From: a virus
Length of the DNA stretch: 64,000 nucleotides
IMG/VR virus record: IMGVR_UViG_3300020810_001160
Location: 1-64,000 of that record
Reading direction: 5' to 3' (one strand)
Position 1 is the first letter of the stretch; the number at the start of each line of letters is the position of its first letter. Under the pieces are notes generated by a model. It was not told where the DNA came from. It searched no databases and saw only the letters and a list, made by a program, of their open reading frames with translations. Position numbers and translations under genes: made by a program. Shown piece by piece: positions 18,229 through 34,694 of this stretch.

Positions 18229-18621
18229 TTACAGTGCAGTTAACACCAACACGTTTGATGTTGAGTCATCTGATACTGCCCAAGTATATCTGTTGTTAGA
18301 AAAATCTCTACAAGTTCTGTTGTAAAGTTTTTTAATTGTAACACCGTCTCCTGTGCCACCAACGTAACCTAATAGGTTCATTTCGCCATCTGCTAAAGCA
18401 CCTGCATCTTTATTTACAAGTGTACAGATTCCGTCAGTGCCTGAGCCGTCGTTAGCATCGTTAACTTTAAATTTGTTAACAGATCTTTGACTTAAGATTA
18501 TACCTGTGTTTGATATTGCTTCTCCAGTAACTTTTACGTTAACTGTGATATTTTCTGACGCTTCGCTACCTACTTCATCAAGTACAGTTCCGAAGTATCT
18601 TTTGTTTACCGGTCTTCCCAT
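18229..18621 (-). CDS. Hypothetical 130-aa protein, probably structural
   Basis: Start reassigned to the ATG at 18621 (MGRPVNKRYFG), preceded by AAGGAG. Confidence 0.7.
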   Translation of the reverse strand: MGRPVNKRYFGTVLDEVGSEASENITVNVKVTGEAISNTGIILSQRSVNKFKVNDANDGSGTDGICTLVNKDAGALADGEMNLLGYVGGTGDGVTIKKLYNRTCRDFSNNRYTWAVSDDSTSNVLVLTAL

Positions 18622-18639
18622 TTGTTTTCTCCTTTTTTG

Positions 18640-18698
18640 ACGTTCTAGGTCTACGAGGTTGTGTCCCCATAAGTCCAGCCGAAACTGGCCCAAAACAT
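18640..18698 (-). ncRNA. Candidate three-way-junction 5' leader RNA
   Basis: P1 AUGUUUUGGG/CCUAGAACGU, P2 CCAGU-UUCG-GCUGG, P3 UAUGGGG/CCUCGUA; lies between TAAATA (18712-18717) and the RBS. Confidence 0.6.
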
Positions 18699-30295: not shown

Positions 30296-30865
30296 ATGCA
30301 GATATACACACAAATTGTCCGCCCATCGGAGTTGGATGAAGATGACCTGTGGATTCCATGTCTTAAGACATTCCCAGTAAAACATTCGCCAGCGGCGGAA
30401 CAACCACTCATCATCACACACATCGAAGCAGTGAATCACTATGCTCACAGTGTTGCCAAACTGTTGGACCAGAAGGTGTATGCAGTGGGATCTAAAACCT
30501 ATGACCGACTCGTAGAGGCGGGCTTCGCGGAAAAAAATATTCATTGGAGACATCGTGCGGACGAACTCAAACTGCGTTCAAAAGAAATAGGACCAATCAC
30601 TTGGCTCCGTGGAGACAAGTATGCACGAGATTTTTCACACCTACCAGAATGCACAGTGATACAGACATACGAATCCAAACCAGATCCAGATGCCATCAGA
30701 CAGATATTAAAATTAGAACCAGACGTGATACACGTGTATTCAGATGCAGTGTTAAAAGAATTAGAGATTAGAAATTGGAGTCATACCAAACTGCGTCATG
30801 TAACATCAGCAGATCCTGATAAGAGTTTGTGGTTGGACTGTGAATCATTTGATCCTAGTGTTTAA
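30296..30865 (+). CDS. hemD: Uroporphyrinogen-III synthase-like protein (compact, divergent)
   Basis: WIPCLKT, LIITHIEAV, VYAVGSKT..RL.EAGF, ADEL, ITWLRGD..RD, QTYES and IHVYS..V follow the order of HemD motifs. Confidence 0.6.
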   Translation: MQIYTQIVRPSELDEDDLWIPCLKTFPVKHSPAAEQPLIITHIEAVNHYAHSVAKLLDQKVYAVGSKTYDRLVEAGFAEKNIHWRHRADELKLRSKEIGPITWLRGDKYARDFSHLPECTVIQTYESKPDPDAIRQILKLEPDVIHVYSDAVLKELEIRNWSHTKLRHVTSADPDKSLWLDCESFDPSV

Positions 30866-31250
30866 GAACGACTGCGTCGTTCTGCTTTTCGCTCACGCTC
30901 AAGCATTTAAACAATCACATAACGAAGTTATGTCGTGCATCATGCAGATAGTTGATCCATACTTCACCCAGCAACGGGTAAAGTATGTTGCTTCATGCGA
31001 GATGAGCCTACCATTGTGTGAGAGGAAATTCCTTGCGGACGGAAGCGGTGACCCGCCAACTCCCTATTCCAGACTTCATTAGTCACGGGCAACTGACCCA
31101 CCCTTCACAAACAAAGTGATCAGTTGTGATGTTGTATCTTTTTCACAGAGCATCTTCTTTTGTGCCTTAGTTAGCACTTGACTTGCAACTCAGGATTCAC
31201 CCAACGTCTTATCGACTGCATTTCCTGGATCCGTAGATCAGTTGTGTTGC
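30865..31250 (-). ncRNA. Candidate large structured ncRNA immediately 3' of the GIY-YIG gene
   Basis: About 390 nt with no credible ORF and at least ten stems; cUACGg and GCAA tetraloops; stem mismatches resolve as G-U pairs on the minus strand. Confidence 0.7.
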
Positions 31251-31254
31251 TATG

Positions 31255-31686
31255 TTATGCCTTGTTGTACTTTTTTAATTCTTCTTTAAGGATTCGGGAA
31301 CCTCCTACCCTGACATTGATGATGCCATTGTAGTAGTCGTCGGATTCTAGTACTCGTCTTTCGAACTGTTCTCGAGCCTCGAGATAACTCATTACGCCTC
31401 TTGATTTGCAGATGTACAGTATTTCCCTTGTGAATTTGTCTTCGCCTAATTGTGCCACGTCAGCAAGTAGATGATCTGATGAACCCCAATAGTCCTTCCA
31501 GTCCGATTCCACCTTGCTTCTACGTTTGTTTATCCTGCCCTTGAGAGGCGGACGTGTCTTCTTGAATTTCGCTAGTTTTTTACCCACATACATTTTACCA
31601 TTGGTTGTATTTGTAATAAGATATACAAATCCTTCGCAGTCTTCTGGCAGTGTGTCGAGTGTTTTACCTTGATAAGTCCATGGCAT
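31255..31686 (-). CDS. Small GIY-YIG family endonuclease
   Basis: GFVYLITNTTNGKMYVGKK, basic insert, DWKDYWGSS, conserved Glu in YLEAREQ, YYNG. Confidence 0.8.
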   Translation of the reverse strand: MPWTYQGKTLDTLPEDCEGFVYLITNTTNGKMYVGKKLAKFKKTRPPLKGRINKRRSKVESDWKDYWGSSDHLLADVAQLGEDKFTREILYICKSRGVMSYLEAREQFERRVLESDDYYNGIINVRVGGSRILKEELKKYNKA

Positions 31687-31701
31687 GAACTTACTTACTG
31701 A

Positions 31702-31920
31702 TTATTTTTTTTGCTGTTGCTGTTTTTGAATTCGTGATGTTTTATATTGGTCTTCCAGCTCTTTACGTCTTTGACGTGCCAAAATTCTAATTTCCGCGAG
31801 CGCCTTTCTGGCGGCTACTTTGGTAGCAAGGCTTCGCCTTTCAGCAAACTTTTCGTTTGCCTTGAAGTATGCCATGTATGCTTTGGTGAGTTTATCGTGA
31901 GTATCATCTTGTATGGTCAT
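31702..31920 (-). CDS. Small basic helical hypothetical protein
   Basis: Probable start at ATG 31920 (MTIQDDTHDKL, 72 aa), overlapping the gp46 stop. Confidence 0.6.
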   Translation of the reverse strand: MTIQDDTHDKLTKAYMAYFKANEKFAERRSLATKVAARKALAEIRILARQRRKELEDQYKTSRIQKQQQQKK

Positions 31921-33688
31921 AAGTTTCCACGTCGTTAGCATATGCTGTGAAGCCGTTTTCTTTGATCACCTTCAACACATTGTTCACACGTCCTATTAAT
32001 TCATCCTTGTGACTGATTAAGAATATGTTTTTGCCTGATTCTCTGCTCATTTTCTTAAGAATAGCCAGAGCACTTTCAACACCTGCTGAATCCATACCAG
32101 AATCTATCAATTCATCCAAGAACAGCAAGTTGATGTTTTGATACAAGTTTTCCCAAACATCTCTAAATGCAAAACTTAAACCCAATATCAATCTATTACG
32201 TTCACCTCTGCTCAAATTATCAAAATCTAATTCTTGACCCAGTTGTGTGATCTCCACACTCAAATCATTTTTAAATGTGACCAAGTGTGGAAGACCCAAT
32301 TGATCCAAGTAGTGTGTCAACCTGTTGTTCAAGAAGGTTAAGTTTTGATCAATTATCTTTTTCCTTATGAAGGAATCTTTGTTTGTAAGCAGTTTATACA
32401 AAAATTCTTGATGTTCTTTTAATTTTTGTAGTGCATTGGCAGTGTCCCAATTGATTTCTTGTACTGCTTGATTTTTTAATTCTTCTATCTGATCCAAATA
32501 TGGATTAGTTTCTTCTTGTTTGTTGTTCAATGCTGTTTTGATAGATTCCACATACTGTCTGTGATCATATGCTTCTTTTAATGTGTCATAATATGTGTCC
32601 GGTCTTTGTGTCAAATCTCCCACAGTTTTTATATCTTTAAGAGTGGCTTCTAATTGATCTGCCAATTCCATCACATAACTGTTGGCTTCACCATATTCTT
32701 CTTCTAATTTTCTCTGCATTTCTTCAATTTTATCTTGAGGCAGATTCTGTCCACACGCATAACACGTGGCTTTGTGATTTAATTTTTCTAAATCTGTGTG
32801 CAGTTTTTTTGCTGTTTTGTCTGCTTGTTCAATGGTTGCTTCCAAACCAGCACGATCTTTTTGTAATTGTCTCAATGCATCATTTAATTTTGTCCAGTCA
32901 TCCAGTTTTTGATGTGCTTCTAATTCATTGTCAATGTTAATTGCTTCTAATTCTTTTAAATTCTTTTTTAATTTTTCAATGTCTGTGCTGTTTTGATTTT
33001 GCCAAGCACTGCTTTTATTTTGTAAACTGTGTATTGTTTCTTCCACTTTTTCATTGGATATTTTTATTCCTTCTAAACGTGCGGTTTCTAATGCTATATC
33101 TTCTTTTGTGCTTTTGATGTGAGTTTTCAATATCTCTGCTTTTTCAGACAGCAGTTGTATTCCTAACAGTTGTTCGATAATATCCTGTTGTTCGTTGGCG
33201 TGTAAACTTAAGAATGGTTGTGTGTATGTGTTCAACGCCACAATGTGTTTGAACATCTTAGGATTCATTCCAATCATTCTGTTCAAATCTTCCTGTGTTT
33301 TACGTGAATCTCCTTGACTTACATCTGAAAGTTCCTGTTCTTCCTCGTCAATAAAATATTTCATCACGTTGGGCTTTCGACCACGCTCTACTTTATAATT
33401 CTTACCGTCTTTTTCAAATGTGATTGTGACCAACATATTTTTACCGTTGGTTTTGTTTACAAGATTGTCTTTACGTATTTTTGTGAGTGCTTCCCCATAC
33501 AGTGCATAAGACAACGCATTCACAATGGTTGTTTTACCTGTACCATTACGTGATCCTGCATCATCACCACCCATGTCTAGGTTTTCACCCAATACCAATG
33601 TTAACAGTTTTTGCTGAAAGTCTATGGCTTGGGTTTGATTACCCACACTCATAAAGTTTTTAACTGTAAGTGTTTTAATTACTATCAT
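31904..33688 (-). CDS. gp46: Recombination endonuclease subunit, Rad50/SbcC-like
   Basis: KNFMSVGN, Walker A NGTGKTT, CYACGQ zinc hook, LSRGE signature, Walker B LLFLDE, ISH. Confidence 0.93.
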   Translation of the reverse strand: MIVIKTLTVKNFMSVGNQTQAIDFQQKLLTLVLGENLDMGGDDAGSRNGTGKTTIVNALSYALYGEALTKIRKDNLVNKTNGKNMLVTITFEKDGKNYKVERGRKPNVMKYFIDEEEQELSDVSQGDSRKTQEDLNRMIGMNPKMFKHIVALNTYTQPFLSLHANEQQDIIEQLLGIQLLSEKAEILKTHIKSTKEDIALETARLEGIKISNEKVEETIHSLQNKSSAWQNQNSTDIEKLKKNLKELEAINIDNELEAHQKLDDWTKLNDALRQLQKDRAGLEATIEQADKTAKKLHTDLEKLNHKATCYACGQNLPQDKIEEMQRKLEEEYGEANSYVMELADQLEATLKDIKTVGDLTQRPDTYYDTLKEAYDHRQYVESIKTALNNKQEETNPYLDQIEELKNQAVQEINWDTANALQKLKEHQEFLYKLLTNKDSFIRKKIIDQNLTFLNNRLTHYLDQLGLPHLVTFKNDLSVEITQLGQELDFDNLSRGERNRLILGLSFAFRDVWENLYQNINLLFLDELIDSGMDSAGVESALAILKKMSRESGKNIFLISHKDELIGRVNNVLKVIKENGFTAYANDVETYDHTR

Positions 33689-34694
33689 TGTTTAAATCTC
33701 TAAATATTTTTAGCAACACTGCTTTATCATAAGCATCTGATTCTATGGTTTCAATTTCTTTGGACACAATCTGATCTACAGATTCAAACTTTGTGATATC
33801 CAATTCTGTATTGATTTCCTCATCTTTTTTGCTTGGAATCAATGTGATTTCTCTACAATCATAATCCTTCATAAAAGTTTCTTTGATATAACTGGCTTCT
33901 TCAAAACTGATATCAATATCCAATGTGACTCGCAAGTGCATCTTGCTTTTCATTATTTCTTTTGTTTTGTCTAACAGTGTGCTTAATTTCACATTTCTAT
34001 ACTTGGGACAGTTTGGCCAATTGAAATACACAGGCTCTTTGTCGTGTTCCAGTATCATCATGCCTCGATCATCATCATCTACATCTGCGTAATTGTGTGG
34101 AAAAGGATTACCCAAGTAATGGATATTGTTTTTGACCTGTCTTTTGTGGAAGTGTCCAGAGAACACATATTCTTGATTGACAAAATCACTGCCTCGCAGT
34201 TCGCCTGTGTCAGGCATTTCCACCATGGCATTCATAAAAAAGTTTGGCAATTCAAAGTGCCCAAACATATATTTGCATTTCATTTTACCCACTTTTTTCC
34301 ATTCATTGCCTATTAACCAAGGCACCATCACCACATCATCTATCTTTGTGATCTCGTTCACCATGGTGATACCTGGAATAAATCTTCCAAACTCTGTGGA
34401 CTGAATGTCTCTGCTGTCTTTGTAGTATAAATCGTGATTACCTGGAAAGAAATAAAAGTTTTCAAATGCTTTGCCTAACTTTTCTAAACATCTAATGGAA
34501 GCATCCATAGTGGTTATGTTCACACTGTTTCTGTTGTGATGCCAGTCACCGCAAAACATTCCTGTTTCGCAACCATGCTCCTTGGCTAGAGCAATGTACC
34601 AATCGATAAATTCTTCGCAATCGTCGTTGTGTAATTTTGAATTGGATTTCAATCCAAAGTGTATATCGGTAAACACCGCTAATTTCTTGAACAA
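33675..34694 (-). CDS. gp47: Recombination endonuclease subunit, Mre11/SbcD-like
   Basis: TDIHFG, GDWHH, GNHD, GHFE and SGHFH metallophosphoesterase motifs; TTG start after AGGAG. Confidence 0.93.
   Translation of the reverse strand: MFKKLAVFTDIHFGLKSNSKLHNDDCEEFIDWYIALAKEHGCETGMFCGDWHHNRNSVNITTMDASIRCLEKLGKAFENFYFFPGNHDLYYKDSRDIQSTEFGRFIPGITMVNEITKIDDVVMVPWLIGNEWKKVGKMKCKYMFGHFELPNFFMNAMVEMPDTGELRGSDFVNQEYVFSGHFHKRQVKNNIHYLGNPFPHNYADVDDDDRGMMILEHDKEPVYFNWPNCPKYRNVKLSTLLDKTKEIMKSKMHLRVTLDIDISFEEASYIKETFMKDYDCREITLIPSKKDEEINTELDITKFESVDQIVSKEIETIESDAYDKAVLLKIFRDLNNDSN

What the first reader, a model, noticed from the sequence alone, without database searches (positions are those of the whole stretch)
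30865..31686. GIY-YIG nuclease gene followed directly by a ~390-nt highly structured RNA: candidate undescribed nuclease-ncRNA system
Seen: the largest non-coding gap in a tightly packed genome begins at the GIY-YIG stop codon and is visibly GC-richer than its surroundings. On the minus strand it folds almost end to end: GCAAC/GUUGC (31246-50 with 31185-89) enclosing GAUC-UACG-GAUC (canonical cUNCGg, 31228-39) and CAGGA/UCCUG; GUGC/GCAC (31162-77); GAUG/CAUC (31128-54); CAACUGAUC/GGUCAGUUG (31090-31126); GACU/AGUC (31072-84); AGGGAGU/AUUUCCU enclosing GCGG/CCGC (31045-56) and UCC-GCAA-GGA (31030-39); and a 12-bp stem at 30958-87. Mismatches such as 30965:30980 are G-U on the minus strand but C-A on the plus strand, which argues for an RNA sense to the nuclease gene. 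Established: compact nucleases paired with adjacent large RNAs (IscB/HEARO, TnpB/omega RNA) are RNA-guided, and phages carry large orphan RNAs (GOLLD, ROOL). Inference: this may be an RNP partner of the 143-aa nuclease, whose basic insert KFKKTRPPLKGRINKRRSK could bind RNA, or an independent phage ncRNA. I do not recognise the family.
Basis: partly seen in the sequence, partly recalled or inferred. Interest (0 to 1): 0.9.

Follow-up and report, generated by a model that had tools for sequence, protein, structure and literature searches.

The report
Large knotted phage RNA beside nuclease
The 389-base gene-free gap behind a small DNA-cutting enzyme gene of this uncultured giant T4-like water phage encodes a real, intricately folded non-coding RNA that hundreds of related phages keep, but nothing shows that it guides or partners that enzyme, and its job is still unknown.

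Summary
Window 30883-31254 (minus strand) encodes a ~372-nt RNA with about 15 helices and two pseudoknots. On 26 diverse homologs, 40 of 76 pairs show compensatory changes against 24.3 in shuffles (0/500).

The RNA sits at a fixed locus (gp47-gp46-orf79-small nuclease-RNA) in all ~250 related viral loci fetched. It is held in metatranscriptome assemblies from several studies.

The nuclease-RNP or guide reading is not supported:
- Homologous RNAs follow an unrelated PD-(D/E)XK, resolvase-like nuclease in two loci.
- Close GIY-YIG homologs, with the same basic insert, occur without the RNA.
- No guide-like complementarity was found.

The window RNA has no Rfam match. Sister subtypes carry Rfam Polynucleobacter-1 (RF01718, function unknown) as their 5' domain, so this is an uncatalogued variant of a larger modular family.

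The oddest feature is two short "twin boxes" that differ between lineages but are identical within each RNA (115 of 116). Their reader is unknown.

This scan has found the same family at least 15 times before on other DNA, with the same conclusions.

The parts
30883..31254 (-). Structured non-coding RNA, about 372 nt. RNA position N equals window 31255-N. It starts at the base after the GIY-YIG stop codon.
   Evidence: Homologs were found in all ~250 related loci fetched. Covariation. No Rfam match. Present in metatranscriptome contigs.
31162..31254 (-). 5' domain. Helix GCAAC/GUUGC (31246-31250 with 31185-31189) encloses hairpin 31228-31239 and helix 31223-31227 with 31191-31195. Hairpin 31162-31177 follows. 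Other subtypes replace this domain with Rfam Polynucleobacter-1.
   Evidence: Replacement shown by L392, where RF01718 lies directly 5' of the region that aligns to the rest of the RNA.
31090..31154 (-). Helix GAUG/CAUC (31128-31154) and the long two-part hairpin 31090-31126, whose loop carries the 5' strand of pseudoknot 1 (31105-31109).
   Evidence: In the long hairpin 11 of 14 pairs have changes on both sides. Pair 137:156 shows CG, UA, AU and GC.
31017..31021 (-). 3' strand of pseudoknot 1 (UCACA), which pairs with 31105-31109 (UGUGA).
   Evidence: 95.4% paired, and 4 of 5 pairs have changes on both sides. One pair shows CG, GC, AU and UA.
31082..31085 (-). 5' strand of pseudoknot 2 (UGAC), which kisses the GUCA loop at 31049-31052.
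   Evidence: 100% paired, 4 of 4 pairs covary. Variants seen: UAAC/GUUA, AAAC/GUUU, UAGC/GCUA, CGUA/UACG, and UCAG/CUGA, UCAU/AUGA.
31024..31070 (-). Three-way junction. Closing helix 31067-31070 with 31024-31027. Helix 31060-31064 with 31041-31045 carries CGG/CCG and the GUCA loop. Variable hairpin 31030-31039.
   Evidence: In the closing helix 4 of 4 pairs have changes on both sides. Pair 194:211 is AU in 14 sequences and GC in 12.
30993..31001 (-). Twin box 1 (CUC-GCAUGA).
   Evidence: The 6-nt core is identical to box 2 in 115 of 116 unique RNAs, across 9 core variants. Further variants occur in divergent subtypes. On 33 diverse RNAs the four variable positions agree between boxes in 33, 33, 32 and 30.
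30961..30984 (-).
   Evidence: 96.2% paired, 9 pairs.
30940..30947 (-). Twin box 2 (CU-GCAUGA).
30883..30932 (-). 3' hairpins. Hairpin 30918-30932 has a CUUCG loop. The last hairpin, 30883-30905, has a covarying stem and the conserved loop GAGCG-NN-AGCGAA.
   Evidence: 4 of 5 stem pairs have changes on both sides. The loop motif occurs exactly once in the window.
30866..30882 (.). Stem-loop at the convergence point. It is terminator-like for the plus-strand 189-aa gene and is the likely 3' limit of the RNA.
31255..31686 (-). 143-aa GIY-YIG nuclease: catalytic domain only, SegE type.
   Evidence: Pfam PF19835, E 7.3e-36 over the whole profile. AlphaFold pLDDT 90; the best fold match is the I-TevI catalytic domain, weak (E 0.1, prob 0.96). 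Motif residues are invariant in 25 homologs. Amino-acid identity stays at 73-83% where 4-fold sites are saturated.
31702..31941 (-). orf79, a small basic protein kept between gp46 and the nuclease gene in nearly all related loci. Context only; function unknown.
   Evidence: No Pfam or PHROG family.
31904..34694 (-). gp46 and gp47 (Rad50/Mre11-like recombination nuclease subunits), the head of the same-strand gene string.

Best explanation
The gap is a gene for a ~372-nt autonomous structured RNA. It is one subtype of a large modular family (350-600 nt) fixed at the end of the gp47-gp46-orf79-small nuclease gene string of aquatic jumbo T4-related phages.

Shown:
- The fold (about 15 helices, two pseudoknots), the strand, and the conservation.
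- The fixed position.
- The replaceable nuclease neighbour: GIY-YIG or a PD-(D/E)XK resolvase-like enzyme.
- Presence in RNA libraries.

Inferred:
- The RNA is made as the 3' end of the nuclease-operon transcript, since it starts at the stop codon with no promoter-like site between, and then acts on its own.
- The nuclease is a constrained recombination-type enzyme occupying a replaceable slot. It is neither a selfish homing gene nor an RNA-guided effector.
- The RNA's working part is the 3' module. There, two short box sequences that are always identical within one RNA bind two copies of one partner that co-evolves with each phage lineage (a nucleic acid or an adaptable protein), held by the knotted core as a scaffold.

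What that partner is, and the biological output, remain unknown.
For: Structure:
- 87.7% of cells paired against 77.8% in shuffles, 40 compensatory pairs against 24.3, score 0.300 against 0.138, all 0/500. Slid registers score 0.077-0.109.
- mutual information picks out both pseudoknots.
- frequent G.U pairs fix the strand.

Not coding:
- no ORF is shared among relatives.

Fixed locus:
- gp47-gp46-orf79-nuclease-RNA is kept in relatives whose gp46 is only 50-100% identical.
- all 41 loci that reach past the 189-aa gene carry the RNA.
- 104 of 104 informative loci found by an RNA-only motif carry the nuclease gene.
- GIY-YIG loci that nhmmer missed still hold a divergent twin-box RNA.

Replaceable neighbour:
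- the RNA follows a PF24608 PD-(D/E)XK gene in L381 and L418.
- that protein is 51% identical to the PA5oct gene product annotated as 'RusA-like Holliday junction resolvase' and 38% to Phosso's 'Holliday junction resolvase'. Both genes lie near gp46.
- in L378 a 257-aa ORF lies between the GIY-YIG gene and the RNA.

GIY-YIG without the RNA:
-.

Constraint on the nuclease:
- 73-83% amino-acid identity where 4-fold sites are saturated.

Transcription:
- no promoter-like site between the ORF and the RNA.
- contigs of RNA libraries from three studies bridge the ORF/RNA junction (31017-31674, 30955-31569 and 31191-31686). In a fourth, two contigs cover just 30875-31250.

Twin boxes:
-.
Against: - No RNA ends, strand or abundance could be measured. 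Only assembled contigs were available, and DNA carry-over in RNA libraries cannot be excluded.
- No RNA copy without an upstream nuclease gene was found among about 150 informative loci. That strict linkage is what a functional pair would also give.
- The twin-box partner is wholly inferred. No complementary sequence was found.
- 'Resolvase' is only an annotation of distant homologs.
- The GIY-YIG plus RNA segment forms one island of high identity between the window and L013/L014. The two can therefore move together as a cassette.
Confidence: 0.6

Rival explanations
1. Nuclease-RNA system. The RNA binds the domain-poor 143-aa GIY-YIG protein and supplies DNA recognition or regulation, with the lineage-specific twin boxes as the programmable part.
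For: - Strict adjacency on the same strand. The RNA starts 0-10 nt after the stop codon in most loci, and no locus has the RNA without a nuclease gene.
- The nuclease has no DNA-binding domain.
- The GIY-YIG gene and the RNA share one island of high identity against L013/L014.
- The twin boxes vary between lineages like a specificity element.
Against: - The same RNA family, with the same 5' domain type, follows an unrelated PD-(D/E)XK fold in L381 and L418.
- In L378 an extra ORF separates the GIY-YIG gene from the RNA.
- GIY-YIG homologs of 45-72% identity, with the same basic insert, lack the RNA.
- The boxes are only 6-9 nt. No complementarity to the flanks or to the nuclease start region was found.
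- There is no hypervariable 3' or 5' tail like that of omega RNAs.
Confidence: 0.15
2. The RNA gene is an independent, conserved phage gene, and the slot just upstream of it is a landing site for free-standing homing endonuclease genes (GIY-YIG or PD-(D/E)XK) that cut nuclease-less alleles in or near the RNA gene.
For: - Two unrelated nuclease families sit in the same slot.
- The short GIY-YIG family sits in many different contexts in other phages.
- There is one sign of cassette exchange: 4-fold sites of the GIY-YIG gene are 65-66% identical, against 44-46% in gp46 and 38% in the 189-aa gene. The identity island is seen.
Against: - No empty (nuclease-less) allele was found among about 150 informative loci.
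- The nuclease is under strong purifying selection across deep divergence and shows no decayed copies. Both are atypical of selfish homing genes.
- It has no DNA-binding domain.
Confidence: 0.12
3. A cis-acting 3' UTR element that controls the stability, termination or translation of the nuclease-operon mRNA at the convergence point of two transcription units.
For: - It lies at the 3' end of the gene string and abuts a shared terminator-like stem.
- RNA-library contigs bridge the ORF and the RNA.
- In the window's own clade, GCAUGA is complementary to UCAUGC across the nuclease start codon.
Against: - The start region stays AUGC-NN-UGGAC in clades whose boxes differ, so there is no covariation.
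- Fifteen helices and two pseudoknots are far more than known 3' stabilisers need.
- The RNA keeps its place when the upstream gene is swapped or another ORF is inserted.
Confidence: 0.1
4. Not an RNA gene. Instead a decayed C-terminal (DNA-binding) part of a longer Seg-type gene, a small missed protein gene, or a DNA-level element.
For: - T4 Seg proteins are longer, about 200-220 aa (my own knowledge).
- Short ORFs can be drawn in the gap.
Against: - No ORF is shared among relatives.
- Compensatory changes, and G.U pairs on one strand only.
- About 140-aa GIY-YIG proteins are the family norm: the PHROG 447 profile is 148 long, as are homologs in isolates.
Confidence: 0.02

Closest known systems
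Polynucleobacter-1 RNA motif (Rfam RF01718; Weinberg et al. 2010, PMC2864571)
   Same: Sister subtypes at the same locus, after the same nuclease family, carry RF01718 as their 5' domain (63-120 bits in L366, L392, L381, L378, L421; 62 bits in L064). It is followed by the same knotted core, twin boxes and terminal hairpin as the window RNA. It comes from aquatic metagenomes and its function is unknown.
   Different: The window RNA does not match the model at E up to 10. Its 93-nt 5' domain has a different architecture. RF01718 covers only about 141 nt of RNAs that are 450-600 nt long. The 2010 paper classed it as probably cis-regulatory and mentions no nuclease. No later paper in the library names it.
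GOLLD and ROOL (large ornate RNAs often carried by phages)
   Same: Large, multi-domain, pseudoknotted and phage-borne. Function unknown. Known mainly from comparative genomics.
   Different: No match to either Rfam model. Smaller. Tied to one fixed locus behind a small nuclease gene rather than to tRNA clusters. The comparison of habits rests on my own knowledge and on PMC5737381.
IscB/HEARO and TnpB omega-RNA systems
   Same: A compact nuclease gene with a large structured RNA encoded directly beside it.
   Different: Those nucleases are RuvC/HNH proteins with dedicated RNA-binding parts. Their RNAs carry a guide taken from the element's flank. Here the nuclease fold is GIY-YIG or PD-(D/E)XK, it is interchangeable, no guide-like segment was found, and the locus is a fixed phage operon rather than a transposon.
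Free-standing GIY-YIG homing endonucleases of T4-like phages (Seg proteins; I-TevI catalytic domain)
   Same: The protein matches Pfam SegE_GIY-YIG. Its model resembles the I-TevI catalytic domain most closely.
   Different: No DNA-binding domain. Present in every related locus. Strongly constrained. Replaceable by a resolvase-like PD-(D/E)XK enzyme. None of this is usual for selfish Seg genes.

Membership tests
Rfam RF01718 Polynucleobacter-1 | Match to the covariance model at or above its gathering score (37 bits) | tested here: not met
   No match for the window at gathering or at E up to 10. Relatives L064, L366, L392, L381, L378 and L421 score 62-120 bits.
Rfam RF01718 Polynucleobacter-1 | Homology of the rest of the RNA to RNAs that contain the motif | tested here: met
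   An nhmmer profile of the window type aligns to RF01718-bearing RNAs from about RNA position 88 or 194 to the end. They share pseudoknot 2, the twin boxes and the terminal hairpin.
Extended 'twin-box' phage RNA family (uncatalogued; named in earlier notes of this scan) | Two identical short boxes flanking a conserved hairpin, a knotted core, and a terminal hairpin with a GAGCG-NN-AGCGAA loop, all behind the small nuclease gene after gp46 | tested here: met
RNA-guided nuclease systems (OMEGA-like) | The RNA is exclusive to one nuclease family that has an RNA-binding part | tested here: not met
   The RNA follows GIY-YIG or PD-(D/E)XK genes. The GIY-YIG protein is a bare catalytic domain.
RNA-guided nuclease systems (OMEGA-like) | A variable guide segment matching a target or the element's flank | tested here: inconclusive
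   No complement of the twin boxes was found in the RNA, the nuclease start region or the 3' module. Whole genomes and hosts could not be searched with words this short.
RNA-guided nuclease systems (OMEGA-like) | Physical RNA-protein complex and RNA-dependent cleavage | not testable with these tools
   Needs biochemistry.
GIY-YIG nuclease, SegE type (Pfam PF19835) | Profile match, GIY-YIG fold, and conserved motif residues | tested here: met
   E 7.3e-36 over profile positions 1-123 of 123. Model pLDDT 90, with the I-TevI catalytic domain as best (weak) fold match. Y22, Y33, G35, R87, E103 and N120 are invariant in 25 homologs.
Free-standing homing endonuclease gene | Sporadic presence among close relatives (filled and empty sites), and a DNA-binding domain | tested here: not met
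   Every informative related locus is filled. There is no DNA-binding domain. Purifying selection is seen.
Group I intron carrying a GIY-YIG ORF | Match to the intron model, and interruption of a host gene with exons on both sides | tested here: not met
   No Intron_gpI match at E up to 10. Downstream lies a convergent, conserved 189-aa gene. The helix topology did not look group-I-like to me; that is my own reading.

The most novel reading that the evidence does not exclude
The twin boxes are a programmable, bivalent recognition module. Two identical lineage-specific boxes base-pair with two copies of an external nucleic acid. That could be a DNA site handed to the neighbouring recombination nuclease, or a pair of tRNA anticodon loops (core positions 3-6 are always AUGA, AUAA, AGGA or AGAA). 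This would make the RNA the specificity subunit of a new kind of phage RNP.
Probability: 0.1. Interest if true: 0.9.

Novelty: new variant of a known kind. Interest (0 to 1): 0.6.

Why it matters
This is one of the larger and more intricate RNA folds known only from phage metagenomes. It is fixed in a whole clade of aquatic jumbo T4-related phages, and only a third of some of its relatives is catalogued, as an orphan motif from 2010.

The twin boxes change between lineages yet stay identical within each RNA. That implies a sequence-specific reader nobody has identified.

The constant pairing with a small recombination-type nuclease gene, of either of two folds, points to an unexplored link between a structured RNA and phage DNA recombination or processing.

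The evidence here speaks against it.

Tried and rejected
- **Group I intron or other Rfam family:** no match at E up to 10. Seventeen variant loci gave only RF01718, in L064.
- **Protein-coding gap:** no shared ORF.
- **blastn of the gap against 50,697 phage records:** no match. So no close homolog in a cultured phage.
- **Twin box pairing with the nuclease start codon region:** true only in the window's clade. The start region does not covary.
- **A complement about 160 nt upstream of box 1 in RF01718-type RNAs:** it is an invariant U-rich word, not a covarying partner.
- **A partner column inside the 3' module:** none beyond clade-level signal.
- **Possible third long-range pairing (31227-31230 with 30955-30958):** one compensatory pair at group level, broken in 2 of 32 sequences. 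It competes with the local hairpin. Left open.
- **Scan of genome contigs with the RF01718 core pattern:** 120 stretches in unrelated taxa, none with the RNA or the nuclease. The pattern was too loose, so this says nothing about bacteria.
- **PDB sequence search with both nucleases:** nothing.
- **tRNA scan of the window:** none.
- **PA5oct and Phosso (nearest cultured relatives by gp46, 47-48% identity):** no nhmmer or Rfam match near gp46.
- **Metatranscriptome contigs:** parts of the stretch without cover, and contig depths, are not used as evidence.
- **Covariance model of the family:** not built. nhmmer plus inspection by eye sufficed.
Full report
**What is there.**

The window is part of a 100.6-kb IMG/VR virus record that CheckV estimates at 27% complete. 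On the minus strand lie:
- gp47 and gp46 (Mre11/Rad50-like);
- a 79-aa basic ORF (orf79);
- a 143-aa ORF at 31255-31686;
- a 389-nt gap, 30866-31254.

The gap meets a convergent 189-aa gene, followed by a 58-aa gene and a baseplate hub gene. The nearest cultured relatives by gp46 are the jumbo phages Phosso, PA5oct and Atu_ph07, at 44-48% identity.

The 143-aa protein matches Pfam SegE_GIY-YIG over the whole profile (E 7.3e-36). It models with pLDDT 90 and resembles the I-TevI catalytic domain most closely, though weakly. It keeps the motif residues. The gap is the largest internal stretch of the window without an ORF of 100 aa or more.

**Is it a structured RNA?**

Yes.
- The minus strand folds better than its shuffles (z -2.68). 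The plus strand does not (z -1.31).
- The gap sequence is conserved directly behind homologs of the nuclease gene in viral contigs. No ORF is shared.
- I set up a hand-built structure of 76 pairs in 14 helix blocks, two of them pseudoknots, on a MAFFT alignment of 26 diverse homologs. It gives 87.7% paired cells against 77.8% in shuffles. It gives 40 pairs with changes on both sides against 24.3, and a covariation score of 0.300 against 0.138. All three are reached by 0 of 500 shuffles. Slid registers score 0.077-0.109.
- Pseudoknot 1 (31105-31109 with 31017-31021) is 95% paired, and 4 of 5 pairs covary.
- Pseudoknot 2 (31082-31085 with the tetraloop 31049-31052) is 100% paired, and 4 of 4 pairs covary. 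More variants appear in distant relatives.
- Frequent G.U pairs fix the folded strand as the nuclease-sense strand.

GACU/AGUC does not; it is really pseudoknot 2. AGGGAGU/AUUUCCU is really two helices of a three-way junction.

**Linkage and context.**
- A scan of viral contigs with a motif taken from the RNA alone returned 112 loci. Of these, 104 have the GIY-YIG gene 276-390 nt upstream, 8 are cut by the contig end, and none lacks it.
- Of 42 loci fetched through the 189-aa neighbour, 41 reach past that gene, and all 41 carry the RNA. The GIY-YIG gene is present wherever the contig reaches it.
- All loci share the order gp47-gp46-orf79-nuclease-RNA, down to 50% gp46 identity.
- Twelve GIY-YIG loci had no nhmmer hit. 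The eight I read through all hold a more divergent RNA with the same 3' architecture.

The pair is therefore fixed at one locus, not scattered.

**Is the RNA the nuclease's partner?**

The evidence leans against it.
- **L381.** The gene between orf79 and the RNA is a 173-aa PD-(D/E)XK protein (Pfam PF24608, E 2.5e-29), not GIY-YIG. The RNA behind it has RF01718, pseudoknot 2, the twin boxes and the terminal hairpin.
- **L418.** It has the same gene.
- **The PD-(D/E)XK protein.** It is 51% identical to the PA5oct gene product annotated as 'RusA-like Holliday junction resolvase', and 38% to Phosso's 'Holliday junction resolvase'. Both genes lie near gp46.
- **L378.** A 257-aa ORF separates the GIY-YIG gene from the RNA, and the upstream gene is not gp46.
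- **GIY-YIG without the RNA.** Homologs sit in other contexts without it in Melnitz (72.5% identity), S-SRM01, ACG-2014f and phiM12.
- **The basic insert.** Melnitz and phiM12 keep the same basic insert, and S-SRM01 and ACG-2014f keep it in part. It is therefore not an RNA-specific feature.
- **Selection.** The GIY-YIG protein stays 73-83% identical where 4-fold degenerate sites are saturated. That points to purifying selection, not a decaying selfish gene.
- **One pair hints at joint exchange.** Between the window and L013/L014, the GIY-YIG gene and the RNA form an island of 84-91% identity between flanks at 50-56%. The 4-fold sites are 65-66% identical in the GIY-YIG gene, against 44-46% in gp46.

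**Relation to known RNAs.**

The window has no Rfam match. Sister subtypes carry Polynucleobacter-1 (RF01718) directly after the stop codon, in place of the window's 93-nt 5' domain. It is followed by sequence homologous to the rest of the window RNA. The family is therefore modular. RF01718 describes only the first third of some members.

The 2010 paper lists RF01718 as a probable cis-regulatory RNA from Burkholderiales and fresh water, and says nothing of nucleases. No other paper in the library names it. Literature searches found no description of a GIY-YIG-associated RNA.

**Twin boxes.**

Two short words flank the conserved hairpin: CUC-GCAUGA at 30993-31001 and CU-GCAUGA at 30940-30947. 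Among 116 unique RNAs the 6-nt core is identical in both boxes in 115, with nine core variants. My pattern search slightly favours identical pairs. Divergent subtypes add ACAGGAA, ACAGAAA, GUAUGAA and ACAUAAA. On 33 diverse RNAs the four variable positions agree between boxes in 33, 33, 32 and 30. I found no complementary partner. This is unexplained.

**Expression.**

Twenty metatranscriptome runs from 18 studies (salt marsh, fresh water, marine) hold part or all of the stretch. In three of the four runs laid, a contig bridges the ORF/RNA junction. In the fourth, two contigs cover just 30875-31250. Contigs show presence only. They give no ends, strand or level, and DNA carry-over is possible.

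**Reading.**

Most likely this is an autonomous structured RNA made at the end of the recombination-nuclease operon. The nuclease is a constrained, replaceable neighbour. The twin boxes are a bivalent site for an unknown co-evolving reader (confidence 0.6).

Rivals:
- a true nuclease-RNA pair (0.15);
- a landing site for homing nucleases (0.12);
- a cis-acting 3' UTR element (0.1);
- not an RNA at all (0.02).

**Earlier work of this scan.**

Notes on other genomes describe the same family at least 15 times and reach the same conclusions. I had seen the twin boxes and the RF01718 hit before reading them. Their mention of PD-(D/E)XK neighbours was a lead that I then confirmed on L381 and L418.

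Noticed in passing
window 18619-18689 (-): Rfam freshwater-2 RNA (RF02980), 50.9 bits, just above its gathering score of 49.9. It is a second catalogued orphan motif in this phage.
   Followed up: no
window 31702-31941 (-): orf79 is a small, very basic, helical protein with no Pfam or PHROG family. It is kept between gp46 and the nuclease gene in nearly all related loci (32-97% identity). It is a candidate nucleic-acid binder that could be tested against the RNA.
   Followed up: partly
window 31118-31128 and 31236-31246: An 11-nt direct repeat (CACAACUGAUC on the minus strand) was flagged on this window by another first-stage note. In relatives the two copies differ; for example L146 has ACCACUGAUC against ACAACUGCUC. 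The repeat is therefore not conserved, and a switch built on it is unlikely.
   Followed up: partly
upstream of the nuclease start, window about 31690-31700 (-), and the same place in L-loci: A conserved GUAAGUA word lies 3-7 nt before the nuclease start codon across clades. It could be a ribosome-binding or promoter-like signal of these phages. Not analysed.
   Followed up: no
L479:6911-7924 (Sinorhizobium phage Phosso) and L478:6517-8031 (PA5oct): Both cultured jumbo relatives have a resolvase-like PD-(D/E)XK gene near gp46, next to 1-1.5 kb with little or no annotated coding. The Phosso gap holds two hairpin-like copies of an AAUAGCGAAG word that recalls the GAGCG-NN-AGCGAA loop of the window RNA. 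There is no nhmmer or Rfam match.
   Followed up: partly
L378:8882-11148: In this relative the gene upstream of the GIY-YIG gene is a 342-aa protein with a CxxxCxxC motif (radical-SAM-like by eye) instead of gp46/orf79. A 257-aa ORF of unknown family lies between the GIY-YIG gene and the RNA.
   Followed up: no
L053, L062, L065, L071, L081 (about 150-330 nt after the GIY stop; about 460 nt after it in L050): Divergent subtypes share another conserved middle domain (GUCGACGUAGGUUGGGAAAGGUCAGAGCCC ... ACCUACUUCC) in place of the window's knotted core. It has no Rfam match.
   Followed up: no
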